Shown: positions 3,001 through 46,253, counted from the whole stretch's first letter. The stretch: DNA of 63,533 nucleotides, filler included, from Atractiella rhizophila (GCA_021432655.1; 3 parts of 2 records of this genome joined end to end with filler, not necessarily neighbours in it); one strand, 5' to 3'. Translations and numbers: made by a program. Notes: a model not told the origin generated them from the letters alone.

Positions 3001-3355
3001 TAGCGAGTATGAAAATAATATGAAAATCGATGGGGACGTTTGCTGTAGATCCCCATTCTAAATTGTCAAGGATGGACAGGAAGATTGCCACCGATTCCAT
3101 CTAAATCGAGCATTAGTGGACTGACTGGCACTGCCTCAACGTTGGCTGAAATATATCCACAGGTTGCGGAGCGTGCTCTGTGGTAAGCATTTTTCATCAT
3201 CTGAGTCGCGAACGTCAAAACGATCTCTACAGAGTTGTGGTCGGTGCTGCTCTTGCGTTACCTGCCAATGCGCCCGAACTTGTTAAGAAATCTCGTGCAA
3301 TCCTTCTTTCTAAATTCGAGATTTAGCGTGTCTTGTGTTCTTTCATTGGAATCTT

Positions 3356-4790
3356 TTAATGTAGAACGATAGCTAGGTTTCTTGCACTACCGCTTTCCTC
3401 CTGATCAAACAGATTCCACAATTCCAGCCTAAGCTCCTTGCCCGTATTTTCGTCTACAGCCAGTCGCTCTTGCAACAACAAAGCAAGCCCAGTGAATCTC
3501 TCCAACACAATATAGCTCTCCAACACCGGTCCGAGAAGACATCTGAGTGTCCAAAAGAACATGAACGTCTACTTGAGGTTCAAGTGGTGCAACGTCATTC
3601 TCGTTGAGATGCATCTTCTTCAACGCTTTTGAGCGAAAGGTCTCGTACGAAAGAAAACAAGAGTCCGCCAGTCTACCCACCCTGTTCTCAGAAGGAGAAG
3701 GACCTTGAGATGTGTTGAGCTCTACTTGAAGACGTGCTCGATAGACAAGTTTGCGCATGGATAGTTTGGCGGCTTCCCAGGATGGGAGATTGAGTGGCGA
3801 GAACAAAGTGGTTGTGAGTGAAAGTAGGAGAAATGTTAGATGGATGGAATGGGAAGTCTTGAACAAGACATATGAGACTATTCTACAACAGATTTGTCCG
3901 AGAGACACGCACTGGCAGAGGAAGTAAGATTGTAGCAACACCCAATCGCGATCAAGACATCTTGACGTTCTGCACTCCCCAAGCTAACGAAAGCACGCAA
4001 CGTGTCGACAGTAAGATCTCCACAGGCATGCAAAGCACAAACGAGCCTCGCTCATCCTTATCCGCACGTCTTTCTTGCAGAATTTTTGTGACTCCGTTCT
4101 CATCCAACAGTTCCGTTTTCAACGTCAACATCCCTCTCTTATGTTCCTCTTCCTTTTTCTTATATTTCAGACGGGTTGAAACTAACTTCTCTGCTCCAGT
4201 GACTTGAGAGGAGCTGCCCTCGATCGCACAGACATCAAGAAGCAGTGGCTCTCCGGTCACAACAACAGAGAGATGTGCTCGTCCGGATCCAATATCAATC
4301 GCGTTCTCAATTTGTGGTTTATGGCAGAGGAGCGTTTGGGCAAGTGCGATGAAGCGATCGACCTCAATTGCGCTTTCTTCGGAGACATGCCATGAGGCAA
4401 TCCGCTAGAGAACACTTTGGACGTGCTGGAGATGGAGTGCGAAGATGAAGCCGCTCCAATCGCTTTGCCATCGATTTCCCAGCTGAGAAGGGGTTTGCCA
4501 CTTGGCTTCCGAGGAAGGGAGAATTCACGACAAGGGTCCGTGAATGCTTTCAGAGAAGCGGGAGCGTCTGGCTAAGCGGCATTTCAGCCAGGTACACCCT
4601 GATGCAGAAATTAGATTGCAGAAATTTGTACAACGTATGTAACAAGATATGAAAGGAATCTCCGGGAGCAGGGAAAGCCAACTCATACATGCCCACTGAC
4701 GTTGCAGGGTTGGGACAAAGCCACCGTGTTGAATTTTGGTCTAAGCCATTTAATAGCGAGTAGGAGTATGTCCAAGACGGTGCTCTGCCA
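3356..4790 (-). pseudogene. METTL25/RRNAD1-like (Methyltransf_32) SAM-dependent methyltransferase pseudogene, copy 1
   Basis: Fragments across frames: GMSPKK, IDIGSGRAHLS, GCCYNL, FWTLRCLLGPVLESYIVLER, LFDQEESGSARNLAIV. Frameshifts relative to copy 2, e.g. gcgcaattgaggtc vs gcgcatgaggtc near 4365. Confidence 0.75.
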
Positions 4791-5199
4791 TTGATAAATA
4801 GACCCAAGATATCATCAAAAGCATTCAAGTTTACAGGGATGTCCAATGAAGTGCGACTTGTCTCAATTTCTTCTCAAGAGAGGAAACACACCGTCACCTA
4901 CCCCGACTCAGATTGTTCAATGCGGATTCCACAACACTACCTCCCAAACTTCCGTCGTACCATCCCTCCCATTCGCTTGGGACCATTTCTCCTGCCCTGT
5001 TCACATCAAAGGTAGTTGGATTGATAGGGGACTGTCTAAAGAAAGAATTGCTGGATGAGGTGCAGAGCCGAGTGATGGTGGAATCGTGAAGGAAACTCGA
5101 GGTTTCTGCAAGTGAAAGGCAGCGGTGGGAGCACTTTCGACATTCTTTCGTCGATGTCAAATTGAAACTCGGACAAGTGTCGGTGCCTGCTTCAGGTTT

Positions 5200-6375
5200 G
5201 AGTCATGCCCTCCGCCCCCAATACCTGGCTTCGCTCCTTTTAAATTTCCTCCGTTGCAACTCGGCGAGACGTTGCGGCATCGACCACTGTATCCGCTCAC
5301 AACGCAACGTATCCAAACATCAAAACACTCCTTCCTCCGACAAACGCTCTTGCCTGCGCCTCCAACCCGTGCACTCAGACTATCAACCACCATCGTTCCC
5401 GTCACCACTCCATCGTCCATCTCCTCCCGTCTTCAACTTGTCGGATCCTCTCCAATCACGACTGTCGACTTGAGCAACACGTAGCCGTTACGATGCGAGC
5501 AACGAACTCGCTAAAAACGACTGGTTGAACAGAGGACTGATGGGGAGGGAGAGGGAGCGGCGTATGTGTCGCCTTTCGACCACAAGGTTATGACACAGGG
5601 AAATACCAATCTGGTTGGGGAAACCAAAGACCAAATGGGAAGGAGGGCTTCAAACGGCATAGAATACATGTCTCTGTTAGGGGTGGTGGATTGCTTGGAG
5701 GTGTGCTCATGGGACATGAAGCAGTACGCTGGGTCACGGTGTGCGCTTCCATTCCTTATTGTGCTGTGTACAACGTTCCAGAGCTGATTTGTTCAACCAA
5801 ATGCAACAGTACCAGTCCCTGCTATTGAAACGAGAGGAGCGGCATCGCTCCACGGCTCCCTCCCGCCTCATACACGGACCACAGTGCGCCGATTCGAAGT
5901 GGAAGCAGTAGCCTCCATCGCTGGCTCGCAAGGCCCAAATATCTCGAAAGAATGTATAAGGTGTTGTCTCACCCACAAAGGAGGCGTAACGAGTGTGGTA
6001 GTTGAAGATGCAAGGGTCGTGGACATGATTGAAAGCTTTGCTGGTTCGTCTTCCTACCTTCTTGCTTTCATCCCCAAAATCGTCTGATGCTTATGGGCAT
6101 CGATGAATAGCCATCAAATCCTCGTTGATCCCGCCGTGGCAGCTCTTGCACTTTTCTATGCGGATGGAGCGCCGGAACTCTTGAGGAGAATATTCAAGGA
6201 TCTGCCAAAGGATCGACGACCCTGTGTTGTCATTGTTGTTTGTGGAGTCAGTTAGGTATCGATGATCAAGTTGTTGGAGCGGAAAGGACGGTTGGAGCAT
6301 GTGGCGTTGGGGGAGATCATGGTCTTTCGTGCCTGGATCGGTGACGGTGACTTTTCGTTTCCACCCCTGGTCCTA
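5200..6375 (+). pseudogene. PLP-dependent L-serine/threonine dehydratase (CHA1/SDS-like) pseudogene, copy 1
   Basis: Scattered motifs: VYVSPFDHKVMTQGNTNLVGETKDQMG, a GGGLLGG glycine loop, VASIAGSQG, HKGGVTSVVVEDARVVDMIESFA. Multiple frameshifts. Boundaries approximate. Confidence 0.7.
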
Positions 6376-6535
6376 ATAAAATCGGGCTTAACGGTATCGT
6401 TATATCTCATTTGGACTTCCAGATACCGATGGATCCTGTTGATATTTCAAGGGATAAATGAAGCATACTCCATTCAAGACTTTATGATAGCTGACAACAT
6501 TGCTTAGACGAAGCGTTACGTCCTGCAACAGGATA

Positions 6536-9500
6536 TCAGCTCGCACAAAGCAGTGATGTTAGAGCACTACCTGAATCATTTTGACACGTCGTCGTTAATC
6601 TTTCCGTTTCATCAATCTTCTGAAGCAGATTGTCGCAGTCATCTACATCGGACGTGGCAAAACAATCCGAGTAAAGCTGACGGGCACGACCAACTTCCTC
6701 TCGCGCGACGGGGTATTGGGACGATTGGAAGAGGAGTTGGGCCAGATTCTGTCTGCTCCGAGCTTCGTAGTGGCCGCCAACTGCTTTGCTCAAATTGACT
6801 GCTTCCTGCAGAACGTCGATTGCTTTGAACACACTCTGGGAGTCTCCAGCATAAACCGTGCTTATATTGAAAAGACAGTTAAGTTGACCTCCTAGGTCTT
6901 GATCCAGGAGGTACAGCTCCTTTGCCTCCTCGAAACGGCTCAGAGCTTCATCCATCTGACCCCGATGCTGCTCGATCTGCCCAATACTGCGAATACAATG
7001 GGCTTGCCCTGGTAGATCTTCTACCACCTGGTACAGCTCCTTCGCCTCCTCGAAACGCCCCAGCGCTTCCTCCATCTGGCCCCGATGCTGCTTGATCTCC
7101 CCGATGCTGCGAATGCAGTGGGCTTGCCCCAGCCGATCTTCTACCACCTGGTACAGCTCCTTCGCCTGCTTGAAACGGCGCAGAGCTTCATCCCTCCGAC
7201 CCCGGCGGTGCTCGATCTCCCCGATGCTGCGAATGCAGTGGGCTTTCCCCTGTTGATATGCTACCACCTGGTACAGCTCCTTCGCCTCCTCGAAACATCT
7301 CAGCGCTTCCTCCATCCGACCCCGATGCTGCTCTCTCTCCCCGATGCTGTAAATACAGTGCGCTTGCCCTAGCCAATCTTCTCCCACCTGGTGCAGCTCC
7401 TTTGCCTCCTCAAAGAATTTCACCGCTTTTTCCATCTGCCCTCGATGCTTCTCAATCTCCCCCATGCTGCGAATACAGTGGGCTGTCCCCTGTTGATTTT
7501 CTACCACCTGGTACAGCTCTTTCGCCTCCTCAAAACATCTCAGTGCTTCCTCCATCTGGCCCCGACGTTGTCCGATCTCACCTATGCTGCGAATGCAGTG
7601 GGCTTTCCCCTGTTGATCTTCTACCACCTGGTACAGCTCTTTCGCCTCCTCAAACCATCCCAATGCTTCCCCCATCCTACCCCGATGCAGCTCGATCTTC
7701 CCGATGCCGCGAATGCAGTGGGCTTGCCCCTGCCGATCTTCCACCACCTGATACAGTTCCTTTGCCTCCTCGAAAAGTTTTAGTGCTTTCTCCATGTTCC
7801 CTCGATGCTGTTCAACCTCCCCTATGCTGTGAATGCAGTGAGCTTGCCCTTGCCGATCTTCTACCACCTGGTACAGCTCTGTCGCCTCCTCAAAACATCT
7901 TAGTGCTTCCTGTATCTGACCCCGATGTCGCTCGATCTCCCCCATGCTGCGAATGCAGTGGGCTTTACCCTGTTTATATTCCACCACCTGATACAGTTCC
8001 TTTGCCTCCTCGAAAAGTTTTAGTGCTTTCTCCATGTTCCCTCGATGCTGTTCAATCTCCCCTATGCTGTGAATGCAGTTGGCCCGCCCCAGCCGATCTT
8101 CTACCACCTGGTGCAGCTTTTTTGCCTCCTCGAACAGTTTCACCGCTTTTTCCATCTGCCCTCGATGCTGCTCTATCTCCCCCATGCCACGAATGCAGTG
8201 GGCTTGTCCCTGCCGATCTTCTACCACCTGGTACAGCTTATTTGCCTCCTCGAAACATCGCAGTGCTACCTCCATCCGACCCCGACGCCGATCCATCTCC
8301 CCGATGCTTCGAATGCAGTGGGCTTGTCCCTGCCGATCTTCTACCACACCCCGACGCCGATCCATCTCCCCGATGCTTCGAATGCAGTGGGCTTGTCCCT
8401 GCCGATCTTCTACCACATGGTACAGCTCCTTTGCATCCTCGAAGAGTTTCACCGCTTTTTCCATCTGCCCTCGATGCTGCTCGATCTCTCCCATACTGCG
8501 AATGCAGTGGGCTTTCCCCTGTTGATTCTCTACCACCTGGAACAGCTCCTTCGCCTCCTCAAAACATCTCATTGCTTCCTCCATCCGACCCCGACGCTGC
8601 TCGATCTCCCCGATGCTGCGAATGCAGTGGGCCTGCCCCAGCCAATCTTCTACCCCCTGGTACAACCCCTTCGCCTCCTCAAAATATTTCAACGCCTGTT
8701 GTGGCGCCTGCTTCTGCCTGACTGCGAATCCCATAGCCATAGTCAATTTAGCGCTGAATTTCACTGGTAAACTCATTGACTGTATGATGGACAGAGCATG
8801 ATGCAGTAATTCGATCGATAGAAGGTGCTGGAGATACTGAAAGTGCCAGATTTCCACAAGGAAACAGACCAGTTTTGTCGAATCTTGTAGATGGTCAAAA
8901 CCGGCCAGAACCACATACTCAAGATTTGGATGATCGTTGCGGAAGCACAACAGCCCTATCCGTTTGCCCTCAACTTCGAATCGTTGGATATTTTCCCGAG
9001 CTTTGTGCATAAGACGCTCAGTAACGGGCTCAAGGGAGGGGACGATGGTTTTAAAACCAAGATCAGGATGTAAGACTGAGTAGTTGACATGTTCACGAAT
9101 TGGCACAAGCATCCTCAATCGTGTTGAGTTTGTCAAGCCGTCTTCGTCAGTTTCAGCGAGTCCGACGGAGAAAATTGAAGTGATGACCTCGTAGGATTTC
9201 TCTGAATCAAGAAGGCAGGATTTCTCCGTAAGTGCGACAATGTCCGTGTCCAAAAGCCCATCAGGTGTCCAGGACAGAGCGGCAAGTATAAACGTGCTTA
9301 GGTCGTGATGCATTTTGAGAAGAGGTAAGCTAAGGGAAAAAGATATCGACGTTGCAAGAGTTGGAGTCTCCTCGCTGTCCTTGTCCCATAGCACCTTTGT
9401 CTTCTTTGCCTCCCACTCCTCTAACAGAGTTGGAATATGTTTCGTTGACTCTGCGTTGGCACGAAGAACAAAGAGCTTGATCGACAAAGTGTGATGATCC

Positions 9501-11244
9501 AGCTTAGCGAACATGGTCTTGAGCACCTGTGCCGTACAAATCTTTCTTCCCGTGTACAAGTGCTTGAACAAGTCCAGCCAGGCAGCGTCAGATAAGCCTC
9601 TAATTGTCAGCTCTCGAAATTCCACATCTGTGACGTTCACTCGATAGATTCGATGTCCCCGATGGGCTACGATGAGAATGGACCCCAATGTACTGTTTGC
9701 AGAAAGAAGAGCTTGAAAGAATGGCTGCAGGTGCTCCGTGTCACGCTCTGCGGTGGTTTCAAAATTGTCCAAGATAAGGAGACACTTGTGACGGTGAAAA
9801 TATCGAGCAACAGCACCAAGTTCACTTTCACCTGGTCGAGGTGCTATTGCAAAGACATGCCGGCAAACATAAGTGGCAAGTGATGAAAATGTAGAGAAAG
9901 CATCGCATCGGGCCCAGAACCGAAAGTCTTCCTCCTCACCACCCGCAATCGTCGTGAATCCATCTTTGACTTCCTTCGCATGCAAGATTTGTCGGGCCAC
10001 AGTAGACTTCCCATTGCCAGCGCCACCGATGATTGCAAGATGTTTTTTGTCGGTGAGGATGCACTTGATTGCCGTCGCAACTTCGTCATCTCTTCCATAA
10101 CAATCTCCTGTATGAGGCAACGGAAGCTTCCTGGGCACAGCAATGCGTTGTTTACAGCCTAATCAGGAGCAAGTCAGCATGCTGCCATCAATCACGCAAC
10201 ATGGAGAATACTTTGCACAAGCGACCTCGTCGCGGATGAAACTTCATGACTCATTGCCTCCATGTAAGCATTAGTGCAGCCCACAACGTCCTCCTTTCGC
10301 TCCCATTCCTCCCACCTGAAGTCTTCGAATGTATCAACCGAGAAGCGATGATAGCAATGACCCATCTCGCGGTCCTGCATCTTCACCTTCACGCCATTCG
10401 AAACATTCGAGCAATCCGCCACTATCGCTTTCAGCGCTTCTTCGAAGTTAGCCCGAATATGGCTCAACTTGACTGCCCTTCCAACCCCCGGCCCGAGAGA
10501 CACAAGACAGGCAATCTCACCGCTGGGTCCCCAAATCCGCTTGGCTTCATCGATGGCTACCAATGTAGGGTTGTTGGTGCTAAGCTGAACGTAGCCGGTG
10601 GAATCTTCGTTCATGGGAGGAAAGAAAGGAGGACAGGCAGACATAGCCCTTGCAGCTTGCCAGACGAAATATGGGGAAGCGGATTGAGAGGCAGATCCAG
10701 CATGATGAATGTCGTAGGTGCGCATCTCCGTGGAGACGACAACGTTGGCTTGATAGCTAGAGAGGACGAATGTCCTGCACCTATCCTGCAGAGAAGGGTC
10801 CTTCATAGGAAGAGGCTTAGTCGGATCTTCAGGGGTAGGCGTGTGTCGCTGGATGATGGAGATCAAAGCCTCTTCGAGTTTCTTCGCCGAGAACAAGTAC
10901 TCGGCACTGGGGTCCGAATCCTCTTCAACAAATCCGTCTCGCGTGATCTCTTCGTACGCTGTAATGCACTGACGTACTGTCATCCCCAGCCTCCCGAGCA
11001 TAAGTGCGATCCACCCGCCAGTAGAAGTCCCACAAATGAGATCGAAGACATCGCAAGGCCGAAGCTCTTCGTCTTCCGGGACTTTGAGAAGATGTGCGGC
11101 TTGATGTATGATGCGTTCGAGCATGTAAGCTGCTGAGAAAGTACCGACGCCTCCATTGTCGATAGAAAGGACCCGTAGTCCGAGAGGATTTGCTTTCTTG
11201 ATATTCTCGGGGACCTTGAACACCTTGACGGAATTCGCGAACAT
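6536..11244 (-). CDS. Fungal NLR-like protein: patatin-like domain + NB-ARC/STAND NTPase + TPR repeats (copy 1, intact, 2 exons, about 1551 aa)
   Basis: Exon 1 (ATG 11244..10212): LRVLSIDNGG, FDLICGTSTGG, WQAARAMSACP, CLVSLGPG. Predicted 53-nt phase-1 intron 10159-10211 (GTATTC...GCTGAC...TTAG) joins it in frame to exon 2 (10158..6536). Exon 2 has Walker A GGAGNGKST, Walker B LLILDNFE and 14 40-aa TPR-like repeats. Confidence 0.9.
6905..8680 (-). repeat. 120-bp tandem repeat array (14 full 40-aa TPR units plus a 69-bp internal duplication)
   Basis: Consensus FEEAKELYQVVEDRQGQAHCIRSIGEIEQHRGQMEEALRR. On the + strand ctaccacctggtacagct recurs every 120 bp (7021, 7141, 7261...). Confidence 0.97.
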
Positions 11245-12777
11245 GACGGGCAAAGTGTTGGATTGCAATATGAATCTCCGATAACGGCGATTGGTATCGT
11301 GGTTACAGGTGAAGGAGGAAGGAACTGCCTGAGGCTGGTACAATCTAGTCACTTCTATTAGCCTTGCTTCTATACGTTCCTTGCATACAACATAAATGAA
11401 TCCAGCTTTGTGCCATTGTCCTCGAGTTAATATTCAAGAGAGCAATTGATCGCAACCTCGCCAAACACAGTGCTTTGCTGCTCTGTTCGTTGCCGCTGTG
11501 CCATCAGAAATGGTACTGTAGCTTTCTCTGAGCTGCACGTGGAAGCTCTTTCCCTTTGTTCAATGAATTAAGTCTTGTAACTCTTTTTGGAACTCTGTCA
11601 GCGTACATGCGCTTTGGAAGGAGACGAAATGAAGAAAGCCAAATCGCAAATGCTCCTCCCCTCTCTTTTGAAGAGCAGTTTCAAGACAACGGCAAAGCCA
11701 CATCGCTATCATTTCTGCGTTTTCCTGCGGCGAAACAAGCAAATCCTCACCTCTGTACAGAGGAAATTACGATTCAGCTCTCTCCAGCTCAGATGCAAAG
11801 GTCGCTCAATGTTATAATATCCCAATAGCTCTTTCCAATTTTCCGGGCTTCCCTCAGCTGCCTGGGACTTTCTCGATAAAGATTCAACTCTTTCGTCGTC
11901 CCGTTCAATCGTCCACAACTGACCCTAACTCACTGCGACACGTGAGGCGTAAACCCTACTGGCAGTTGCCACGGTAAGACGATTGTGTGAAAGCTAAAAG
12001 GTCTCTTACGTTCGAAAAGACCGCCGTGGCTTTGTCCTGCGGGTCAGCCATGGCGGAAGGGAAGCTGACATGTCGATTGAGCACCAGTGTGGACTGCAGG
12101 AAGAACGGGACGGGGCACTATTATCGTCTTCCTTAGCATAGGCGAGGTCTGATGGCCGATGTAGTTGTAAAAGAGCTTGACGGAAAAGAAGGGGTCTGTA
12201 TCCAAATCGCTTATGTTCGCCGCCAACAAGGTAGTGACGACGCGTCCTCAATTTGAGCTGTGGTTAATCCAATGTCTCGTCCATACAGGTCTCTACGGTT
12301 TCTATTGTTCCTGTAGTGGGAGCCAGACTGATTAGAGGTCATGGTAATTCTCGTCGCAGTTATTGTGGAGTCCTGAAAGACTGGACGCGGTGTTTCCAGG
12401 TGTAGGTGTAAAGGTGCTAGAATACCTGCACTTCATAACGATCAAAGGTATCAGCGAACGGCTCCAGGTTGCGCAAACTGACAGAGCAACTCAGTTTTGG
12501 ACCACTGGAAACTTGACCATTGACACTGCTTGTAAGTCAAACTTCGACTGCCTCAACGTTGGCTGAAATATCTCCACAGGTTGCGGAGCGTGTTCTGTGG
12601 TAAGCATTTTTCATAATCTGAGTCGCAAACGCCAAAACGATCTCTACAGAGTTGCGGTAAATGTTGCTCTTGCGTTAGCTGCCACTGGAACTTGTCAAGA
12701 AATCTCAGAGAAATGATGTGCAATGCTTCTTCTAAATTCGAGATTTAGCCGCGTCTTCTGTTCTTTCTTGGAATCTT

Positions 12778-14250
12778 TCAATGTACAACTATAGCTAGGT
12801 TTCTTGCGCTACCGCTTTCCTCCTGATCGAACAGATTCCACAATTGCAGCTTAAGCTCCTTGCCCGCGTTCTCGTCTACGGCCAGTCGCTCTTGCAACAG
12901 CAAAGCAAGCCCAGTGAATCTCTCCAACACAATGTAGCTCTCCAACACTGGTCCGAGAAGACATCTGAGTGTCCAAAAGAACATGAACTTTTCTCCTTCC
13001 CACGCTCCTTGAGGCTCAAGTCGTGCAACGTCATTCCCATTGAGATGCATCTTCTTCAACGCTTTTGAACGAAAGATCTCGTATGAAAGAAAACTGGAGT
13101 CCGCCAGTCTACCCACCCTATTCTCAGAAGGAGAAGGAGCCTCAGATGCTTCGAGCTCTACTTGAAGACGTGCTCAATAGACAAGTTTGCGCATGGATAG
13201 TTTGGCGGATTCCCAGGATGACGTTGAAGACGACCACAGGATGGAAGACTGAGTGGCGAGAACAAGGTGGTTGTGAGTGAAAGTAGGAGAAACGTAGGAT
13301 GGATGAAATGGGGAAGTCTTGAGCGAGACATATGAGAATATTCAACAACAGATTGACCGGAGAGAAACCCACTGGAAGAGGAAGTAAGATTGTAGCAACA
13401 CCCAATCGGGATCAAGACATCTTGACGTTCCGCACTCCCAGAGCTAACGAAAGCGCGCAACATGTCGACAGTAAGATCTCCACAGACATGCAGAGCACAA
13501 ACGAGCCTTCCCTCATCCTTGTCCGCACGTCCTTCCTGCAGAATTCTCCTGATACCGTTCTCATCCAACACTTCCGCTTTCAACGTCAATGTTCCTATCT
13601 TCTCTTCCTCCTCCTCTTTCTTCTTATAATTCAAACGGTTTGAACTAACTTCTCTGCTCCACTGACTTGAGAGGAGCTGCCCTCAATCGCACAGACATCA
13701 AGAAGCAGTGGCTCTCTGGTCAAAGCAGCAGAAAGGTGTGCTCGTCCCGATCCAATATCAATCGCGCTCGTAATCTGCGGTTTATTGGACAGGAGCGTTT
13801 GGGCATGTGCAATGAAGCCATCGACCTCATGCGCTTTCTTCGGAGACATGCCATGGGGCAAGCCCCCAGTGAACACTTTGGAGGTGCTGGAGATGGAATG
13901 TCAAGATGACGTCGCCCTGATTCCTTTGCCGACGCTTTCCCAGCTGAGAAGGGGTTTGCTGTTTGGCTTCCGAGGAAGAGAGAATTCACGACAACGGTTT
14001 GTGAATGCTTTCAGTGAAGCAGGAGCGTCTAGCTAAGCGGCATTTCAGCCAATGTTTCTCGAAATGAAGATTAATATTGCAGATAAATGTATGTGACAAG
14101 TTGAGAAGGGAATCTCCGGGAGCAGGGAAAGCCAATTCCTACATGCCCAGTGACGTTGTAGGGTTGGGACAAAGCCACCGTGTTGAATTTTTGGTCTAAG
14201 CCATTTAATAGCGAGCAGGGGTATGTCGAAGACGGTGCTCTGCCATTGGT
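12778..14250 (-). pseudogene. METTL25/RRNAD1-like methyltransferase pseudogene, copy 2
   Basis: MSPKKAHEVDGF...AIDIGSGRAHLS, LHVCGDL...IPIGCCYNL, FWTLRCLLGPVLESYIVLER. Frameshift after GAEKLV (~13640) that is absent from copy 1. Confidence 0.78.
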
Positions 14251-14629
14251 AAATAGACCCAAAATCTCACCAAAAGCGATTCAAAGTTACAGAGGTACGC
14301 AACGAAGCGCGCCATCTCTCAATTTCATCCCAACAGAGGACACACACCTTCACAACCCCTGGACTCAAATTCTTTCGCGTGCCTTCTACGTCGCTATTTC
14401 TGTAGAGAGTTCCGTCATACCATTCCTGCCATTCGATCGCCTCAGCACATTACAGGTAGTAGGATTCGCAGGACTGTCTAAAGAAAGAATTGCTGGATGA
14501 GGAGCAGAGCCGAGCGACGGTGGAATCGTGAAGGAAACTCGAGGTTTTAGCAAGTGAAAAGGCAGCGGTGGGAGCACTCTTTCGTCGAGGTCAAATTTAA
14601 ACTTGAAACAAAAAGATCGGTGCCTCAGT

Positions 14630-15815
14630 GTTGAGTCATGCCCTCCGCCCGCAACACGTTCTTTGCTTCGCTCCATTTCCTCCGTTCCAACTCGGCGAGA
14701 GTTTGCGGCATCGACCACTGCATCCGCTCCCAACGTAACGTATCTAAACATCGAAACACTCCTTCCTCCGACAAACGCTCTTGCCTGCACCTCCAACCCG
14801 TGCACTCGACTATCAACCACCATCGCTCCCGTCACCGCTCCATCGTCCATCTCCTCCCGTCTACAACTCGTCGGATCTCTCCAATCATGACTGTCGACTT
14901 GAACGACACGTAGCCAGTTAGGATGCGAGCAACGAACTCGCTAACAACGACTGGTTGAACAGAGGACGGATGGGGAGGGAGAGCGAGCGGTGTATGTGTC
15001 GCCTTTCGACCACAAGGTTATCACACAGGGAAATACCAGTCTGGTTTGGGAAATCAAAGACCAAATGGGAAGAGGGCTTCAAGCGGCATAGAATACATGT
15101 CTGTATTGGGGGTGGTGGATTGCATGGAGTAGTGCTGATGGGACATGAAGAAGTACGCTGGGATCACGGTGCGCTTGCACTCCTTATCCTCCTCTGCATG
15201 AGATCCACAGCTGATTCGTTCAACCAAATGGAGTAGCACCAGTCCCTGTTATCGAAACGAGAGGAGCGGCATCGCTCCACGCCTCCCTCCTTGCCTCATA
15301 CACGGACCACAGTGCGCTGACTTCAAAACTCGTATCATTGGAAGCAATTACCTCCATCGCCGGCTCGTTGGGTGCAAAGACCGTCTAGAAAGAATGTATA
15401 ACACATTGCCTTACTCACAAAGGAGGCGTAACGAGTGTGGTAGTTGAAGACGCAAGGGTAGTGGACATGATTGAACGGTTTGCTGGTTCGTCTTCCTACC
15501 TGCTTGCTTTCATCAACAAAATCGTCTGGGGCTTATAGGGATCGACAGATGACCATCAAATCCTCGTCAAACCTGCCGTCGCAGGGTCTTGCACCTTTCT
15601 ATGCAGATGGAGCGCCTGAGGTCTTGAAGAAGATTTCAAGGGATCTGCCGAAGGACAGAGCAGCCGTGTTTGTCGTTTTTGTTTGTGGAGGGAGTCAGGT
15701 GTCAATGGCGAAATTGATGGAGTGGAAACCACGGTTTGAGGACGTGCCGTTGGGGGATATTAAGGTCTTTCTTAACTGGATCTGTGACGGTGGCGTTTCG
15801 TTTCCACAAACCTGA
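14630..15815 (+). pseudogene. L-serine/threonine dehydratase pseudogene, copy 2
   Basis: VYVSPFDHKVITQGNTSLVWEIKDQMG, IGGGGLHG, ITSIAGSLGAKTV*, DDHQILV, VVFVCGGSQVSMAKLMEWK. Contains stops and frameshifts. Confidence 0.72.
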
Positions 15816-15980
15816 TCCCAACAAAATCTGGCTTAACGGTATCGTTGTATCTCATTTGGACTTCCAGATACCAACGGATCCTGTTGATATGTCAAGGCAC
15901 AAATGACGCATCTTCCATTCAAGACTTTATGACAGCTGACAGCATTGCTCTGATGAAGAGTTACGTCCTGCAATAGGAGG

Positions 15981-18900
15981 TCAGCTTGCACAAAGCAGTG
16001 GCGTTAGAGCACTACCTGAATCATTTTGACGCGTAGTCGTTGATCGCTCCGCTTCATCGATGTTCTGAAGCAGATTGTCGCAATTATGGACGTCGGATGT
16101 GGCAAAACAATCCGAGTAGAGCTGACGGGCGCGACCAACTTCCTCTCGCGCGACGCGGTATTGGGACGATCGGAAGAGGAGTCGGCCCAGATTCTGTCTG
16201 CTCCGAGCTTCGTAGTAGCCGCCAACTGCTTTGCTCAAATTGACTGCTTCCTGCAGAACGTCGATTGCTTTGAACACACTCTGGGAGTCTCCAGTGTAAA
16301 CCGTGCTTATACCGAAAAGACAATTAAGTTGACCTCCTAGGTCTTGAGCCAGCAGGTACAGCTCTTTCGCCTCCTCGAAACGGCTGAGCGCTTCCTCCAT
16401 CTGACCCCGATGCTGCTCAATCTCCCCGATGCTGCGAATGCAGTGGGCTTGCCCCTGCCGATCTTCTACCACCTGGTACAGCTCCTTCGCCTCCTCGAAA
16501 CGGCTCAGCGCTTCCTCCATCTGACCCCGATGCTGCTCAATCTCCCCGATGCTGCGAATGCAGTGGGCTTGCCCCTGCCAATCTTCTACCACCTGGTACA
16601 GCTCTTTCGCCTCCTCGAAACGGCTGAGCGCTTCCTCCATCCGACCCCGATGCTGCTCAATCTCCCCGATGCTGCGAATGCAGTGGGCTTGCCCCTGCCG
16701 ATCTTCTACCACCTGGTACAGCTCCTTCGCCTCCTCAAAACTTCTCAGCGCTTCCTCCATCCGACCCCTATGCTGCTTGATCTTCCCGATGCTGTGAATG
16801 CAGTGGGCTTGCCCCTGCCGATCTTCTACCACCTGGTACAGCTCCTTCGCCTCCTCGAAACGTCGGAGTGCTTCCTCCATCTGACCCCTATGCTGCTAAA
16901 TCTCCCCGATGCTGAAAATGCAGTGAGCTTGCCCCTGCCAATCTTCTACCACCTGGTACAGCTCCTTCGCCTCCTCGAAACGGCTCAGCGCTTCCTCCAT
17001 CCGACCCCGATGCTGCTCAATCTCCCCGATGCTGCGAATGCAGTGGGCTTGCCCCTGCCGATCTTCTACCACCTGGTACAGCTCCTTCGCCTCCTCAAAA
17101 CGTCCCAGCGCTTCCTCCATCCGACCCCGATGCTGCTCAATCTCCCCGATGCTGTGAATGCAGTGGGCTTGCCCCTGCCGATCTTCTACCACCTGGTACA
17201 GCTCCTTCGCCTCCTCAAAATGTTTTAAGGCTGTTTGAGGAATTCCCTGCTGTTGAAATGCAAGACCCATTGCCATTTTCAATTCGGCTTTGAAATTCAT
17301 TTGAAAACTATCGGATTTCGTGGTTGATACAGCCTGCTGCAACAGTTTGATTGAGAGAAGGTGCTGGAGATACTGAAAGCGCCACATTTCCACAAGGAAA
17401 TGAACCAACATCGTCGAATCCTGCAGATGTTCAAAACCGACCAGAAGCACATATTCAAGGTTTGCATGGTCGTTGCGGAAACACAACAACCCTATTCGTT
17501 CACCGTCCACTTCGAATCGTCGCCTATTTTCTCGAGCTTTATCCATGAGACGTTCCGTTAGGGGCTTAAGGGACGGGACAGTGGTTTTAAAAGGAGGATC
17601 GCATTGACAGACTAAGCGGTTGATGCATTCGCGAATCGGTGAAAGCATGCGTAGTCGTATCATGTTTGCCAGGGCATCGTCCGTGTTTTCGGCGAGTCCA
17701 GTGGATAAAATCGAGGTAATGACCGTATCTGCGTCCGAATCCTTCAAATCAGGAAAACAGGAATCGTCCGTAACAGCTCTAATATCATCGTCAAGAAGTC
17801 CGTCAGGGGTCCAGGATAGGACAGCGAGGATGAACATGCTTAGGTCTCCATGTTTTGTCAGCAGAGGTGAACTGAGCGAAAAAGATATCGAGGTCGTAAG
17901 AGTTTGAGTCTCTTCACTATCTTCTCCCCACAGCACTTCCGTCTTCTTCTTCTCCCACTCCTGCAACAACGTAGAGATCCGTTTTGTCGATGCGTTGGCA
18001 CCCAGAACAAAGAGCTTGATCGACAAGGTGTGATGATCCAGCTTGGCGAAAATGGTCTTGAGTAGTTGTTCTGCACAATCCTCCTTTCCCGTGTACAGGT
18101 GGTTAAACAGCTTCAGCAAGGCTATATCACTTAGGCCGCCAATCGACAGCTCTCGAAATTTCACATCTGTGACGTTCACTCGATAGATTTGATGCCCCCG
18201 ATGTGCCACAATCAGAATGGACCCTGAGGCATCGCAGTCTGAAAGAATTGTCTGAAAGAATGATTGCAAGTTGTCTGCATCGGACTGTGCAGGAGTTTCG
18301 AAATTGTCTAAGACAAGGACACATTTGTGACTACCAAAATATCGTGCAGCGGCACCGAGTTCGGTTTCTCCAGGTAGAGGGGCTATTCCGAAGACCTGCC
18401 TGCAAAGGTATGTAGAGAGAGATGAAAATGTAGAGAAAACGTCGCATCGTGCCCAGAACCGAAAGTCTTCCTCCTCGTTCTCCGCAATGGTCGTGAATGC
18501 ATCTTTGACTTCCTTCGCATGCAGGACCTGTCGCGCCACAGTAGACTTCCCATTGCCAGCGCCACCGATGATTGCAAGATGTTTTTTGTCGGTGACGATG
18601 CACTTGATTGCCGTCTCAACTTCGTCATCTCTTCCATAACAATCTCCTGTATGAGGCAACGGAAGCTTTCTGGGCACAGCAATGCGTTGTTTACAGCCTA
18701 AACAAGTGCAAGTCAGATGCCGCCATCAATCACGCAACATGGATAATACCTCGCACGAGCGACTTGGTCGCAGAGGAAACTTCATAATTCATTGCCTCCA
18801 TGTAAGCCTTTGTGCAGCCCACAACGTCCTCCTTTCGCTCCCATTCCTCCCACCTGAAGTCTCCAAATGTATCAACCGAGAAGCGATGATAACAATGATC

Positions 18901-19557
18901 CATCTCACGGTCTTGCATCTTCACCTTCACTGCCTTCGCAACGTTTGAGCAATCCGCGACTATCGCTTTCAGCGCTTCGTCAATATCATCCCGAGTGCAG
19001 CCCAACTTGATAGCCCTTGCAACCCCCGGACCGAGAGACACAAGACAAGCAATCTCACTGTTGGGTCCCCAGATTCGCTTGGCCTCGTCAAGAGCTGCTG
19101 TAGCAGGGTTGTTGCCACCCAGCTGGACGTAGTTGGTGGAATCCTCACTGATATGAGGAAAGAACGGAGGACCAGCGGACGTAGCCCTTGCAGCTTGCCA
19201 GACAAAACATGAGGAAGCGGGTCGAGAGGCAGATCCAGCATGATGAATGTCGTAGGTGCGCATCTCCGTGGAAGCGACGACGCTGGCTTGATAGCTAGAG
19301 AGGACAAACGTCCTGCACCTATCCTGCGGGCAAGGGTCCTTCATAGGAACGGGCTTCGTCGGATCTTCAGGGGTAGGCGTGTGTCGCTGGATGATGGAGA
19401 TCAAAGTCTCTTCAAGCTTCTTCGCCGAGAACAAATACTCGGCAGTGGAGTCCGAATGCTGTTCAAAAAAGCCGTCTCGCGCGATCTCTTCGTACGCTGT
19501 AATGCACTGACGTACTGTCATCCCCAGCCTGCCGAGCATAAGTGCGATCCACCCGCC
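15981..19557 (-). pseudogene. Patatin-NB-ARC-TPR NLR copy 2: single nonsense codon in TPR repeat 3; 5' end lies in the gap
   Basis: Patatin exon 19557..18750 and conserved intron 18698-18749 (GTATTA...TTAG). NB-ARC exon has GGAGNGKST and VLVLDNFE. GAG>TAG at 16896-16898, after which the same frame continues to 15981 with a C-terminus matching copy 1. Confidence 0.85.
16350..17220 (-). repeat. 120-bp tandem repeat array (7 near-identical 40-aa TPR units)
   Basis: cagtg(g/a)gcttgcccctgcc recurs at 16441, 16561, 16681, 16801, 16921, 17041 and 17161. Confidence 0.97.
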
Positions 19558-19734
19558 NNNNNNNNNNNNNNNNNNNNNNNNNNNNNNNNNNNNNNNNNNN
19601 NNNNNNNNNNNNNNNNNNNNNNNNNNNNNNNNNNNNNNNNNNNNNNNNNNNNNNNNNNNNNNNNNNNNNNNNNNNNNNNNNNNNNNNNNNNNNNNNNNNN
19701 NNNNNNNNNNNNNNNNNNNNNNNNNNNNNNNNNN

Positions 19735-20357
19735 GCGCAGAGCAAGCCCTTCCTACTTCGCTATCATATGGTAAGAGACAACGTGCAAAAAGGGAACATC
19801 GTACTACGGTACATACAGACCAAGCACCAAATTGCCGACGTTCTCACGAAACCTCTCTCAAAGGACGTCTTTCACCAATGCATATTCGCCATGGGGAGTA
19901 CGGGACATCGGAGAGCGCATTACCTTCACGTAGCATCTAATCTGTTTGACAAAATGCTTGCATTGCAACTTACAGTAATATCTTGGAGAAGACTTTAAAA
20001 GAATTGCATTTGACCACACACCGTCTTTGTCTACCCTATCATTTCTGCATCTTTCCTCCTGTATCGCACTAGCTGTTTTCATTTCGTTCGTCTCTGCGTT
20101 ACGGTAGCGTACGGAGTGGAGTGTTGAAGTTATTACGTTTTTGACTTTTACTTTCTTTCTGCCCTTTTGAGCTGGCTATCGCATCTGGTGTCAGTTCCGC
20201 CCGCTCCCGTAGTTTAGTCTGTTTTTCAGCTATCTGAGGTTCATCTTTTCTTCGTTCTGTCACTCTGATGAACCTCAGGTAGGTGACTCCTCACCAACGT
20301 TCATGCAATGCTGATCTTTTCTTCGTTCTGTCACTCTGATGAACCTCAGTTTCAACA
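19735..20357 (+). mobile_element. Ty1/copia LTR retrotransposon 3' end (RNase H C-terminus, PPT, 3' LTR)
   Basis: QSKPFLLRYHMVRDNVQKGNIVLRYIQTKHQIADVLTKPL matches the copia RNase H C-terminal motif. Purine tract ggagtggag lies immediately before the LTR. Confidence 0.88.
20122..20357 (+). repeat. 236-bp LTR with TGTTGAA...TTCAACA termini and an internal ~36-bp direct repeat
   Basis: 7-bp terminal inverted repeat. atcttttcttcgttctgtcactctgatgaacctcag occurs twice (~20243 and ~20314). Host duplicated sequence resumes right after 20357. Confidence 0.85.
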
Positions 20358-20779
20358 TAACTCTCTGCCAGCGTACGTGCGCTTTGGAAGCAGATGAAAT
20401 GAAGAAAGCCAGACCGTGAGTGCTCTTTGTCTGTCATTTAAAGAGTAGTTCAAGAACACGGGGGGCAGCCACATCGCTATCATTTCTGCGTTTTTCCAGC
20501 TGCGAAACGAGCAAATACTCACCTCTGAAAGAGAAGTTACGAAATCACGCTTCAGCTCTCTCCAGCTCAGATGTAATGGTCGCTGAATGTTACAATATCC
20601 CAAATGACTCTTTCTAATTTTCCAGACTCCTTGAGCTACCTTAGACTTTCTCGCTAAATTCAACGCTCAAAACTTTCATCGCCGTTTCCGTGTCCACAAC
20701 TGACCCTAACTCATTGCGACGCGTGACGCGTGAACCCTACTTCCTGATTCGCCTCGCCTTCTTCTGCCTACGAAGAACC

Positions 20780-21778: not shown

Positions 21779-21878
21779 NNNNNNNNNNNNNNNNNNNNNN
21801 NNNNNNNNNNNNNNNNNNNNNNTTAATTAATTAANNNNNNNNNNNNNNNNNNNNNNNNNNNNNNNNNNNNNNNNNNNN
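21779..21878. other. Artificial assembly spacer (N-run with central TTAATTAATTAA)
   Basis: 100-bp block with a six-frame stop linker at 21823-21834. An identical construct sits at 46154-46253. Confidence 0.9.
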
Positions 21879-22897
21879 CGATTAAGGAGAGGTAGGATAA
21901 CGACCGCGGCTGAAACAGGGCTTCGAAATCATGTGTCTCTGCTTCTGAACGTTCCGCGCCGTTCGCTCTGCGCTCGCTCGCTGAAACTGTCAGTTGGGAG
22001 CAAAAGTCAGAACTTCGAAAACTCAGACCGATCCTGGGAAGCCAGCCGCATCAGACCTTCGTCTGCATCTTTATTAGATATCGGCGCAGAAAATGACGGA
22101 TTTGACTAAGTTTGGAGGGCCTTTGGTTTGTTTGAAAGAGACAACTTGAAGGGACAACCTGCAGGAAAGGGCAACGCTTGACTAGTCCTTCTGGCCTGTG
22201 CCCCACTACACCTCTTGCAAAGAGTTCTTTGGAATAGGAAGGAATATGCCAATAGGAATCTCACCTCCTTCAGGAACATATAGTCCATAACTGAACTGCT
22301 CAATGTCGCGCCTGCTCTTGCTCTGTTCACGTCATACTCTCCCTAGGGGGCCAAACTTCAGCTTCCTGCTTCAAGCTTCAAGCTAAAACGAGGCTTTTGG
22401 ATATCAGCCTGAGAGAGGGACGTTAAACATTTGATTTTACCTTAGTTCATTCCTACCAGTGGTTTGGTAAACATTTCGACTTGTCTTTGCTTACAAGATT
22501 TGCTTCTATCAGAACAGCTTAGTCTCCCCTTTGCAACTACTGGTGGATCTGCATTTCGAAAATTTATCCGCCTAAATACGCGAACCACCGATAGATGTCC
22601 AAGGCCACCAAGGCTGCGTTTAAAGAACTTGCATTCACACCTTTCGCTTCGAGGATATGCTTCCTTTGCATCTGTAGACTCTCTTGTGAAGACATCTCAG
22701 AGTGATCCGTATCCCGACGAAGCCATAATTTTGGGGGATGACACAGTGAGTTCTTCCTTCATGCTGGTGAATTGCCCGCGAATTGATTGGTGAATAGCAG
22801 GCACAGTTAGAAAGTGATCTCAAGTCTCGACTGCATGCTCTGTTGAGTCTACTTGGTGTGCCTGATCTATTGACGACAGCGCCATCCAGACCGCCAG

Positions 22898-38487: not shown

Positions 38488-38908
38488 ATCTCTTTCCAGC
38501 AGGTTCATTTTTGTGGCGTATATCAGTCAGTCAGTTTGAATGTTATCATGTTCATTTTATTCGTGAGCACGAGCGAGACGAACACGGAGAATGATGAAAT
38601 GAAAATGAAGAGCGTATAATGTAAATGAACCAAAAGGGACTCAATCTGTTAGTTAGCAAATGGACATGCTGTGATAGAGGGATTCAAAAAGAAGAATCGA
38701 AAGCGGTTTGAAAAAGGTCGATAGGCAAGATACTGAGGAAATAAAAGATGAGATGAACGGAGTCGAGGGAATAGTTGGCTGACTGCGTGCCTGGGTCGCG
38801 GTTCTTCCCCGATGTACGTCAGGTTTTGAGATGGAATGCAGAGGTCTAATCGTGATCGAAGGATAGTGGATGGCGAGATTTAGTGGTAGATTGTGGTTTA
38901 TAAGGGAC

Positions 38909-46153: not shown

Positions 46154-46253
46154 NNNNNNNNNNNNNNNNNNNNNNNNNNNNNNNNNNNNNNNNNNNNTTA
46201 ATTAATTAANNNNNNNNNNNNNNNNNNNNNNNNNNNNNNNNNNNNNNNNNNNN
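46154..46253. other. Artificial assembly spacer (N-run with central TTAATTAATTAA)
   Basis: Linker at 46198-46209 flanked by Ns. Confidence 0.9.

What the first reader, a model, noticed from the sequence alone, without database searches (positions are those of the whole stretch)
6536..19557. Tandem pair of patatin-NB-ARC-TPR fungal NLRs: candidate new allorecognition/immune locus
Seen: two paralogous patatin + STAND NTPase + high-internal-conservation TPR genes in a tandem duplication, with 14 vs 7 repeats. Known: this architecture matches the Neurospora/Podospora PLP-1 NLRs that trigger allorecognition cell death with SEC-9. Inference: this is an uncharacterised NLR locus, probably in a basidiomycete, undergoing birth-and-death evolution.
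Basis: partly seen in the sequence, partly recalled or inferred. Interest (0 to 1): 0.8.

Follow-up and report, generated by a model that had tools for sequence, protein, structure and literature searches.

The report
Tandem fungal patatin-NLR gene pair
Two neighbouring copies of a fungal immune-receptor-type gene (lipase-like head, ATP switch, repeat sensor) sit in a 9.5-kb tandem duplication; one copy is intact, the other looks damaged, and the lipase head lacks a key catalytic residue.

Summary
Two minus-strand paralogs encode patatin + STAND NTPase + 40-aa TPR repeats. Copy A (6536-11244) is intact: 1551 aa, one 53-nt intron, 14 repeats. Copy B (15981-19557) has 7 repeats, an in-frame TAG at 16896-16898, and a 5' end lost in an N gap next to 628 bp of unrelated DNA. 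They lie in a larger tandem duplication (2412-11960 / 11963-20741, about 82-85% identical) that also carries a methyltransferase-like gene.

Intron-less contigs in two public runs join the patatin and NTPase exons. The NTPase scores as NACHT in Pfam but is NB-ARC-like by profile and fold. Close relatives occur only in Atractiella rhizophila, so a basidiomycete origin is likely.

The link to PLP-1/SEC-9 is not supported:
- No SNARE gene was found in the window.
- The NTPase belongs to a basidiomycete lineage, not that of the one ascomycete patatin-NLR compared.
- The patatin domain keeps GxSxG but lacks the catalytic Asp and the oxyanion Arg.

Verdict: a new member of the known fungal patatin-NLR kind, from an expanding and decaying family. 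The Asp-less patatin head is the only unusual feature.

The parts
2412..11960 (.). Duplication unit A (about 9.5 kb): NLR copy A, a Methyltransf_32-like gene and an unannotated plus-strand gene
   Evidence: Self-BLAST: 2412-2843 matches 11963-12417 (76%), 3130-7782 matches 12547-17227 (85%), 8364-11019 matches 16900-19557 (82%), 11593-11960 matches 20363-20741 (80%)
11963..20741 (.). Duplication unit B, directly abutting unit A
10212..11244 (-). Copy A exon 1: start codon at 11244-11242 and patatin-like domain (aa 1-345). GTSTG at aa 72-76; DNGGVGT at aa 29-35; Gln220 at the dyad Asp position
   Evidence: Pfam Patatin E=1.6e-12. AF2 model pLDDT 81.9; Foldseek best matches CapV 6e-15, patatin 2e-12, iPLA2-beta 3e-12. 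Motif positions
10159..10211 (-). Copy A intron, 53 nt, phase 1, GTATTC...CTGAC...TAG
   Evidence: Sequence and model. Junction placed by the continuous Atractiella protein P0089. The equivalent intron of copy B is cut out in a run contig
8723..10156 (-). Copy A NOD (STAND NTPase, NB-ARC-like) plus helical linker. Walker A GGAGNGKS at aa 389-396; LLILDNFE at aa 471-478
   Evidence: Pfam NACHT 33.1 bits. AF2 pLDDT 91.1. Foldseek best matches Apaf-1 1.2e-7, NRC2, NRC1 NB-ARC TMt 0.71. Family profile hits AfsR 1.6e-28 and ZAR1 5.3e-16
6905..8695 (-). Copy A TPR array: 14 units of 40 aa plus a capping partial unit
   Evidence: TRF period 120. Pfam TPR_12 E=2.5e-90. Repeat table
8279..8417 (-). Exact 69-bp tandem duplication (23 aa, in frame) inside repeat 3 of copy A; it breaks the 40-aa register
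   Evidence: TRF 2.0 copies, 100% matches; seen in the translation. Could be real or an assembly artefact
6536..6904 (-). Copy A C-terminal non-repeat tail and stop codon (6536-6538)
15981..18697 (-). Copy B exon 2: NOD, 7 TPR units (array 16355-17220) and tail
16896..16898 (-). In-frame TAG in repeat 3 of copy B (SIGEI*QHRG, where the other repeats have E)
   Evidence: Not checked against reads: the output table was cut
18698..18749 (-). Copy B intron, 52 nt
   Evidence: X5 contig record 24 lies on 18527-18696 and 18749-18792, so the intron is cut out
18750..19557 (-). Copy B exon 1, 3' part only (patatin from GGWIALML onward); the first ~75 codons are not in the assembled sequence
19558..19734 (.). 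Assembly gap (177 N) inside copy B's patatin exon
19735..20362 (.). 628 bp with no counterpart in unit A, in place of A 11020-11592 (5' CDS and promoter); origin unknown
   Evidence: Absent from the self-BLAST hits. The plus-strand ORF looks like a Ty1/copia Pol tail from recall only; no tool confirmed this
3432..4404 (-). Methyltransf_32-like gene fragments in unit A
   Evidence: Pfam 34.2 bits (3881-4051) and 20.5 bits (3955-4404)
13161..13900 (-). Methyltransf_32-like gene in unit B
   Evidence: Pfam 34.6 and 25.5 bits. Short skips at 13312-13373 and 13443-13507 in X3 contigs

Best explanation
This is a tandemly duplicated pair from an expanded basidiomycete family of NOD-like receptors. 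Each gene encodes, in one spliced transcript, an N-terminal patatin-fold domain, an NB-ARC-like STAND NTPase and a C-terminal array of 40-aa LGN/Pins-type TPR repeats.

Inferred mechanism, by analogy with characterised STAND/NLR proteins:
1. The TPR array keeps the NTPase in a closed, ADP-bound state.
2. A ligand binds the variable face of the repeats (positions 3, 4, 18, 21, 26, 37).
3. Binding allows nucleotide exchange and oligomerisation.
4. Oligomerisation brings the patatin heads together to act on membranes or to signal.

Copy A is the intact receptor. Copy B evolved under purifying selection for most of its history. It now has a premature stop in repeat 3 and a disrupted or unassembled 5' end, so it is probably a young pseudogene, though it or a near-identical copy is still transcribed.

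What is shown: domain identities, fold, gene structure, the duplication and splicing. What is inferred: ligand sensing, oligomerisation and any cell-death output.
For: Domains and folds.

Single gene: an in-phase 53/52-nt GT..AG intron sits at the same place in both copies. The junction is continuous in Atractiella P0089. Intron-less contigs were found: X5 record 24 on copy B, and X3 record 10 at depth 234.

NB-ARC-like NOD:
- 39 of 50 phmmer relatives hit Pfam NB-ARC.
- The family profile hits AfsR at 1.6e-28 and ZAR1 at 5.3e-16, with no NACHT protein among the 60 rows shown.
- Foldseek ranks Apaf-1, NRC2 and NRC1 first; NOD2 is rank 14 and NLRP3 rank 49.

P-loop intact: GGAGNGKS.

Purifying selection between A and B (Nei-Gojobori dN/dS): patatin 0.28, NOD 0.24, tail 0.31.

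Repeats: variation is concentrated at six codons. In B, pN/pS is 4.1 at those codons against 0.05 at the other 34. The sites were picked after the fact for their variability.

Copy B damage.

Family expansion:
- About 10 Atractiella paralogs.
- In DNA run X1 the summed depth over the NOD and patatin is 6-10 times the depth of exact-match contigs (82-129), with up to 10 distinct contigs at a site.
Against: - No function was tested.
- The patatin domain lacks the canonical dyad Asp and the oxyanion Arg, so a lipase output is doubtful.
- The Pfam Patatin match stops at profile position 177 of 191 in both copies.
- Pfam's own best NOD call is NACHT (33 bits), not NB-ARC.
- The TAG, the 69-bp duplication and the repeat counts come from a gapped draft assembly of near-identical repeats. 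They could be assembly errors, and I could not see the reads at 16896 because the table was cut.
- The spliced contigs are 92-98% identical to the window, not 100%. X3 and X5 are not on record as RNA: X3 is unlabelled and X5 is a guess.
Confidence: 0.72

Rival explanations
1. It is a PLP-1/SEC-9-type allorecognition (het/vic) locus. The TPR array would read allelic variants of a SNARE protein, and the patatin lipase would kill mixed cells.
For: The three-part architecture matches PLP-1 as described in PMC12881547 and 10.1101/2022.04.03.486892 (passages). The patatin domain's best non-Atractiella relatives are ascomycete patatin-NB-ARC-TPR proteins at 27-35% identity. The repeats are hypervariable.
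Against: No SNARE or SEC9 Pfam hit was found in 150 ORFs of at least 90 aa (positions 207-53838) and 131 further ORFs, which include all ORFs of 55-89 aa outside the two NLR genes within 1-26100. The known systems have the two genes adjacent. The NOD is not that of the one ascomycete patatin-NLR tested: E=0.009 against P0005, versus 3e-25 against patatin-less P0100. None of P0005-P0043 is in the best 150 NOD hits. The dyad Asp needed for patatin activity is absent. Small SNARE exons under 55 aa could have been missed.
Confidence: 0.1
2. Both copies are functional. The stop codon, the gap and the foreign 5' sequence of copy B are artefacts of a short-read draft assembly across repeats.
For: The window holds 9 N runs. 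B's repeats are 93% identical and so easy to mis-assemble. dN/dS of 0.24-0.31 shows B was constrained until recently. Contigs at least 99% identical to B (17633-18406) occur in X3, which behaves like RNA, and a spliced B-like contig occurs in X5.
Against: The TAG is a single clean codon within an otherwise open frame. The 628 bp upstream of the gap is truly unlike unit A, while homology resumes at 20363. Pseudogenes are often transcribed.
Confidence: 0.25
3. The patatin head is a pseudo-enzyme. In this basidiomycete clade it no longer hydrolyses lipids and serves as a membrane-binding, adaptor or decoy module, so the receptor signals in another way.
For: The dyad Asp column is Gln in A and B and Leu/Ala in Atractiella P0004/P0098, with a 2-residue deletion. 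Forty of the 44 other homologs aligned keep Asp; 39 are named ascomycetes and 1 is unnamed. The anion-binding DGGGxRG motif reads DNGGVGT. HMMER against iPLA2-beta aligns no Asp there. The domain is still under purifying selection, dN/dS 0.28, and is well folded.
Against: The Ser nucleophile motif GTSTG is intact. A clade-conserved Asp four to six residues upstream (NEDS / TLDK / VIDN) might substitute, and no coordinates were available to test its position. Five Atractiella proteins were dropped from the alignment for lacking a GxSxG match. The motif reading rests on sequence alignment only.
Confidence: 0.3

Closest known systems
PLP-1 (Neurospora crassa) / HET-Z (Podospora) / vic2 (Cryphonectria) patatin-NB-ARC-TPR NLRs
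   Same: Order of domains: patatin, then STAND NTPase with an intact P-loop, then TPR repeats. The patatin domain is homologous to that of ascomycete patatin-NLRs, 27-35% identity over about 75% of the domain.
   Different: No linked SNARE gene was found. The NOD comes from a different lineage. The repeats are 40 aa and LGN/Pins-like. The dyad Asp and oxyanion Arg are missing. No PLP-1 sequence itself was available to compare; the comparison used database homologs.
Atractiella rhizophila 'TPR-like protein' P0089 and 'FabD/lysophospholipase-like' P0004, P0098 and paralogs
   Same: The only close relatives, 35-50% identity. They share the same NOD, the same 40-aa repeats, the same patatin motif changes (DNGG, no Asp) and the same exon-junction sequence.
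   Different: They are annotated as fragments or with other tails; P0089 has a BAG domain match. None is above 50% identity, so they come from a different genus or are fast-evolving.
Agaricomycete 'Novel STAND NTPase 1' / NB-ARC-TPR proteins (e.g. Gloeophyllum P0100, Exidia P0101)
   Same: NOD homologous at about 27-30% over about 350 aa, E down to 1e-16. They share the LDNFET Walker-B region and TPR_12 repeats.
   Different: Other N-terminal domains: SIR2_2 in 7 of 50, MLKL_N in 5 of 50, and no patatin among the 25 most frequent families listed.
Bacterial CBASS patatin effectors CapV / CapE and potato patatin Pat17
   Same: Best structural matches of the N-terminal domain, TM 0.65-0.70.
   Different: They are stand-alone enzymes with a Ser-Asp dyad, activated by cyclic nucleotides. 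Here the domain is fused to an NLR and the Asp is missing.
Fungal NLRs with highly internally conserved repeats (Dyrka et al. 2014, PMC4986451)
   Same: Copy B's array is 90% aa identical over 280 aa, with variation focused on a few positions. The paper reports this for 21% of TPR NLRs (passages).
   Different: Copy A's array falls below their 85% threshold, at 71% aa.

Membership tests
Fungal NOD-like receptor (STAND NTPase with effector and repeat domains) | Central NOD with an intact Walker A motif | tested here: met
   GGAGNGKS at aa 389-396. Pfam NACHT 33.1 bits, above the 26.7 cut-off. The AF2 model matches Apaf-1 and plant NLRs.
Fungal NOD-like receptor (STAND NTPase with effector and repeat domains) | C-terminal superstructure-forming repeats (TPR/ANK/WD) | tested here: met
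   TPR_12 E=2.5e-90 in A and 1.5e-17 in the B fragment before the stop. 14 and 7 units of 40 aa.
Fungal NOD-like receptor (STAND NTPase with effector and repeat domains) | All domains in one transcript or protein | tested here: met
   In-phase intron. Intron-less contigs in X5 and X3, from near-identical or paralogous copies, in runs not on record as RNA.
NB-ARC subclass of NOD (as opposed to NACHT) | Pfam PF00931 at or above its gathering score | tested here: not met
   Copy A: not among the 25 families shown of 34, with NACHT best. Copy B: 16.9 bits against a cut-off of 23.5.
NB-ARC subclass of NOD (as opposed to NACHT) | Profile and fold closest to Apaf-1/CED-4/plant R proteins | tested here: met
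   The profile hits AfsR at 1.6e-28 and ZAR1 at 5.3e-16. Foldseek ranks 1-9 are Apaf-1, wheat G10, NRC1, NRC2 and NRC3; NOD2 is rank 14. 39 of 50 relatives hit NB-ARC.
Active patatin-like phospholipase (PF01734) | Patatin fold | tested here: met
   Pfam E=1.6e-12. Foldseek: CapV 6e-15, Pat17 2e-12.
Active patatin-like phospholipase (PF01734) | GxSxG nucleophile motif | tested here: met
   GTSTG at aa 72-76 in A. In B this region lies in the N gap.
Active patatin-like phospholipase (PF01734) | Catalytic Asp in the DG[GA] motif (motif as given in PMC8593000, passages) | tested here: not met
   Gln220 sits at that column with a 2-aa deletion, in both A and B. HMMER against 6aun aligns no Asp. The Pfam match ends at profile position 177 of 191.
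Active patatin-like phospholipase (PF01734) | Anion-binding element DGGGxxG | tested here: not met
   The motif reads DNGGVGT in A and DNGGIAT in Atractiella P0098.
PLP-1/SEC-9 allorecognition system | Adjacent polymorphic SNARE (sec-9-like) partner gene | tested here: not met
   No SNARE family among the hits of 281 ORFs. Exons under 55 aa would be missed.
PLP-1/SEC-9 allorecognition system | Death depends on patatin activity and the P-loop | not testable with these tools
   Sequence only: the P-loop is present and the dyad Asp is absent.
PLP-1/SEC-9 allorecognition system | Allelic or trans-species polymorphism between strains | not testable with these tools
   Only contig-level data from 4 runs were available, and paralogs confound alleles.
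Highly internally conserved NLR repeats (>85% identity over at least 100 aa, PMC4986451) | Within-array identity above 85% | tested here: met
   Met for copy B (90% aa, 93% nt, 280 aa). Not met for copy A (71% aa, 80% nt).

The most novel reading that the evidence does not exclude
A basidiomycete (Atractiella-like) clade of patatin-NLRs has turned the patatin head into a non-canonical or catalytically dead module. It keeps the Ser but has lost the dyad Asp and the oxyanion Arg, yet remains under purifying selection. It was fused to a basidiomycete-type NB-ARC/nSTAND1 NOD independently of the ascomycete PLP-1 lineage. That would be a new effector logic for a fungal NLR: scaffold, decoy or membrane anchor instead of lipase. 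It would also be a case of convergent assembly of the PLP-1 architecture.
Probability: 0.2. Interest if true: 0.55.

Novelty: new member of a known kind. Interest (0 to 1): 0.35.

Why it matters
Fungal NLRs are numerous, but few have been studied, and almost none in basidiomycetes outside the Agaricomycetes. This locus offers three things:
- A clean, intact 1551-aa patatin-NLR next to a recently decayed twin, which is a snapshot of NLR birth and death.
- Evidence that the patatin/NB-ARC-like/TPR architecture can be built on a NOD lineage different from that of PLP-1.
- A testable question: does a patatin head without its catalytic Asp still kill or signal?

It is not, on present evidence, a new allorecognition system.

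Tried and rejected
**Whole genome.** None is held for this window, so no family census or SEC9 search was possible.

**Earlier findings.** Nothing was found by place or by sequence.

**The 628-bp foreign segment upstream of copy B (19735-20362).**
- From recall, its plus-strand ORF resembles the C-terminal tail of Ty1/copia Pol.
- No tool confirmed this. Pfam gave 0 families. The word-indexed protein search gave 0 hits among 20 candidates. The best PDB E-value was 0.26, for OxyR, which is chance. The Atlas returned only unnamed short eukaryotic clusters at 0.94-0.95 and no named cluster.
- I therefore do not claim a retrotransposon.

**Third TPR ORF (22874-24787).** It is unrelated to the pair (BLASTP E=0.09), so it is not a third copy.

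**RNA runs.** No holder is on record as RNA.

**Doubtful joints.** The joints 9782-10261 and 15990-16390 have sides of only 25-27 letters and were not used.

**Catalytic-site geometry.** The structure tools return no coordinates, so the position of the upstream Asp214 could not be tested.

**RIP-like bias.** The substitution kinds show an ordinary excess of transitions. This was not pursued.

Full report
**What is there**

On the minus strand, stop-to-stop frames 10192-11433 and 6536-10162 (copy A) translate to a patatin-like domain followed by an NTPase and a long repeat region. Frames 18730-19752, 16896-18725 and 15981-16895 (copy B) give the same series.

Pfam on copy A:
- Patatin, E=1.6e-12.
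- TPR_12, E=2.5e-90, 9 stretches.
- NACHT, 33.1 bits against a cut-off of 26.7.

Copy B gives the same families with weaker scores. Its Patatin score of 18.9 bits is low because most of the domain's N-terminal part is N.

Tandem Repeats Finder reports a 120-bp period. In A the array spans 6910-8695 with 77-78% matches (two rows). In B it has 7.2 copies at 16355-17220 with 93% matches.

**Gene models**

Both copies carry a short intron at the same place with the same phase:
- Copy A: 10159-10211, 53 nt, GTATTC...CTGAC...TAG.
- Copy B: 18698-18749, 52 nt.

The junction was placed with the Atractiella protein P0089. That protein reads straight through ('...TKSLTQPHHLRIAIFRKLPLP') where the window has '...TRSLVQS|CKQRIAVPRKLPLP'.

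From the first ATG (11244), copy A gives 1551 aa with a single terminal stop.

Copy B cannot be completed for three reasons:
- Its exon 1 runs into a 177-N gap (19558-19734).
- The 628 bp beyond the gap (19735-20362) has no counterpart in copy A, while homology resumes at 20363.
- Repeat 3 holds an in-frame TAG at 16896-16898 where the other repeats have Glu.

**The duplication is larger than the finding**

Self-BLAST shows two abutting units, 2412-11960 and 11963-20741, at 76-85% identity. Each unit also holds Methyltransf_32-like exons. Judging by spliced contigs, each also holds a plus-strand gene at about 14900-15900 in unit B.

Divergence between the copies is uneven (300-column blocks):

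| Region (copy A coordinates) | Nucleotide identity |
|---|---|
| 9879-10178 (around the P-loop and intron) | 93% |
| 10179-10778 (patatin) | 84-87% |
| 8696-9878 (ARC/linker part of the NOD) | 67-76% |
| 3130-6645 (3' flank and neighbouring genes) | 73-90% |

Synonymous divergence follows the same pattern: dS is 0.73 in the NOD, 0.33 in the patatin domain and 0.19 in the tail. I read this as a mosaic produced by exchange among family members, not as one clean duplication date. This is inference.

dN/dS is 0.24-0.31 in all three parts. Copy B was therefore constrained for most of its life.

**Repeats**

Copy A has 14 units of 40 aa plus an exact 69-bp (23-aa) partial duplicate inside unit 3. 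Copy B has 7 units.

| Comparison | nt identity | aa identity |
|---|---|---|
| Within A | 80% | 71% |
| Within B | 93% | 90% |
| A versus B | 85% | 78% |

Each B unit is closer to another B unit than to any A unit. This fits recent expansion or homogenisation inside B.

Variation clusters at positions 3, 4, 18, 21, 26 and 37. In B, pN/pS is 4.1 at those six codons and 0.05 at the other 34. The sites were chosen after the fact for their variability, so this is descriptive and not a test.

The family profile's best natural PDB matches in the repeat part are LGN/GPSM2 and Pins (E=5e-39 to 1e-32).

**The NTPase**

Direct Pfam calls favour NACHT. Four other lines point to the NB-ARC side:
- An exhaustive phmmer search with the 480-aa NOD found 791 proteins at E<=0.001, only 6 of them at E<=1e-30.
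- Of 50 mid-range relatives, 39 hit NB-ARC, 33 nSTAND1, 16 NACHT and 37 TPR_12.
- A profile of 55 sequences hits the NB-ARC proteins AfsR (1.6e-28) and ZAR1 (5.3e-16). No NACHT protein is among the 60 rows shown.
- The AF2 model (pLDDT 91.1, pTM 0.90) is closest to Apaf-1, wheat and tomato CC-NLRs, and the NRC1 NB-ARC domain (TMt 0.71). NOD2 ranks 14 and NLRP3 ranks 49.

I therefore call it NB-ARC-like, while noting that the Pfam membership test fails.

**Relatives and taxon**

The only proteins near 40% identity are from Atractiella rhizophila:
- P0004 and P0089.
- 8 of the 10 further representatives looked up. The other two are Gloeophyllum and Exidia.

So the family is expanded in that species, and the window probably comes from a related basidiomycete. 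The window's own protein was not found in the databases.

In DNA run X1, exact-match contigs have depth 82-129. The summed depth over the NOD and patatin region is 640-1065, with up to 10 different contigs at one site. That genome therefore holds more copies at 90% identity or above.

**Transcript evidence**

- X5 (guessed RNA): contig record 24 (214 nt, 5 mismatches) lies on 18527-18696 and 18749-18792. It lacks exactly the copy-B intron.
- X3: a 322-nt contig of depth 234 joins 18898-18753 to 10158-9986 with three A-like letters between. This is an intron-less patatin-to-NOD junction of a third, about 92% identical paralog.
- X3 also shows many 59-101-nt skips in the neighbouring genes and very uneven depth, so it behaves like RNA. 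That is my inference, because the run is unlabelled.
- X3 holds contigs at least 99% identical to both A (8700-9037) and B (17633-18406).

**The patatin head**

The fold is patatin. AF2 gives pLDDT 81.9, and Foldseek's best matches are CapV (6e-15), Pat17 (2e-12) and iPLA2-beta (3e-12). The GTSTG motif is intact.

Two catalytic elements are changed:
- The anion-binding DGGGxRG motif reads DNGGVGT.
- At the dyad Asp column both copies have Gln, with a two-residue deletion.

The same changes occur in Atractiella P0004 and P0098. Of the 44 other homologs aligned, 40 keep Asp; 39 are named ascomycetes and one is unnamed. The two remaining exceptions are also basidiomycetes, Rhizoctonia and Flagelloscypha. 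Five Atractiella proteins had no GxSxG match and were left out of the alignment.

Two independent checks agree. HMMER against iPLA2-beta places no Asp there. The Pfam match ends at position 177 of 191 in both copies.

The Ser-Asp dyad is held to be essential for patatin activity (PMC8593000, passages). PLP-1-triggered death is reported to depend on patatin activity and on the P-loop (PMC12881547, passages).

**Comparison with PLP-1/SEC-9**

The architecture is the same, but membership is not supported:
- In the known systems the NLR and the SNARE gene are adjacent (10.1101/2022.04.03.486892, passages). Here none of 281 ORFs scanned hit a SNARE family. The set was 150 ORFs of at least 90 aa from positions 207-53838, then 131 more: the 55-89-aa ORFs outside the two NLR genes within 1-26100, the remaining ORFs of at least 90 aa beyond 53500, and the 87-aa ORF at 19735-19995. 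Short exons could be missed.
- The NOD matches the Penicillium patatin-NB-ARC-TPR protein P0005 only around the P-loop (E=0.009). It aligns over 359 aa with patatin-less Gloeophyllum P0100 (E=3e-25). Only one ascomycete protein was compared in this way. None of P0005-P0043 appears among the best 150 NOD hits.

The architecture was thus probably assembled, or at least diversified, separately. This fits the domain shuffling described for fungal NLRs (PMC4986451, passages).

**Verdict**

It describes an ordinary but well-preserved fungal NLR pair from an expanding and decaying family. The allorecognition reading is unsupported. The one feature worth a bench test is the Asp-less patatin head.

A literature search for 'patatin' + 'catalytic dyad' + 'NLR' + 'fungi' listed 5 papers. 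None was about such a variant, judging by title and abstract. This does not show that it is unpublished.

Noticed in passing
window 22874-24787 (+): A 638-aa open frame with TPR_12 (E=1.6e-10) and TPR_10 matches. It is unrelated to the NLR pair (BLASTP E=0.09), has no NTPase hit, and is flanked by N gaps at 21779-21878 and 25575-25704.
   Followed up: partly
window 19735-19995 (+) and 20245-20340: The ORF ending '...RYHMVRDNVQKGNIVLRYIQTKHQIADVLTKPL...' looks from recall like a Ty1/copia Pol C-terminus, but no tool confirmed it. A ~37-bp direct repeat follows at about 20245-20340.
   Followed up: yes
window 14900-15900 (+), counterpart about 5090-6500 in unit A: X3 contigs show GT..AG skips of 59-101 nt (15152-15238, 15167-15236, 15484-15548 and others). 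This implies an unannotated spliced plus-strand gene, convergent with the NLR 3' end. Its ORFs have no Pfam family.
   Followed up: no
window 55438-55788 (-): Exo70 C-terminal domain fragment (E=3.6e-12), an exocyst subunit about 36 kb from the NLR pair. It lies beside an AT-rich (30% GC) stretch at 56-60 kb with N gaps.
   Followed up: no
window 48400-48864 (-): hAT-family dimerisation domain (E=5.9e-6): a transposase remnant.
   Followed up: no
window 35356-36921 (+); 38901-39434 (-); 44085-46154 (+); 53375-53689 (+); 60022-60920 (-): Ordinary genes in exon-sized pieces: carboxylesterase, COX5A, a chromate transporter interrupted by an N gap, a ubiquitin-conjugating enzyme and an SBF-family transporter.
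   Followed up: no
window 8696-9878 versus 17221-18400: The ARC/linker part of the NOD is less alike between the two copies (67-76% nt, dS 0.73) than the non-coding flanks (73-90%). This points to mosaic exchange with other family members.
   Followed up: partly
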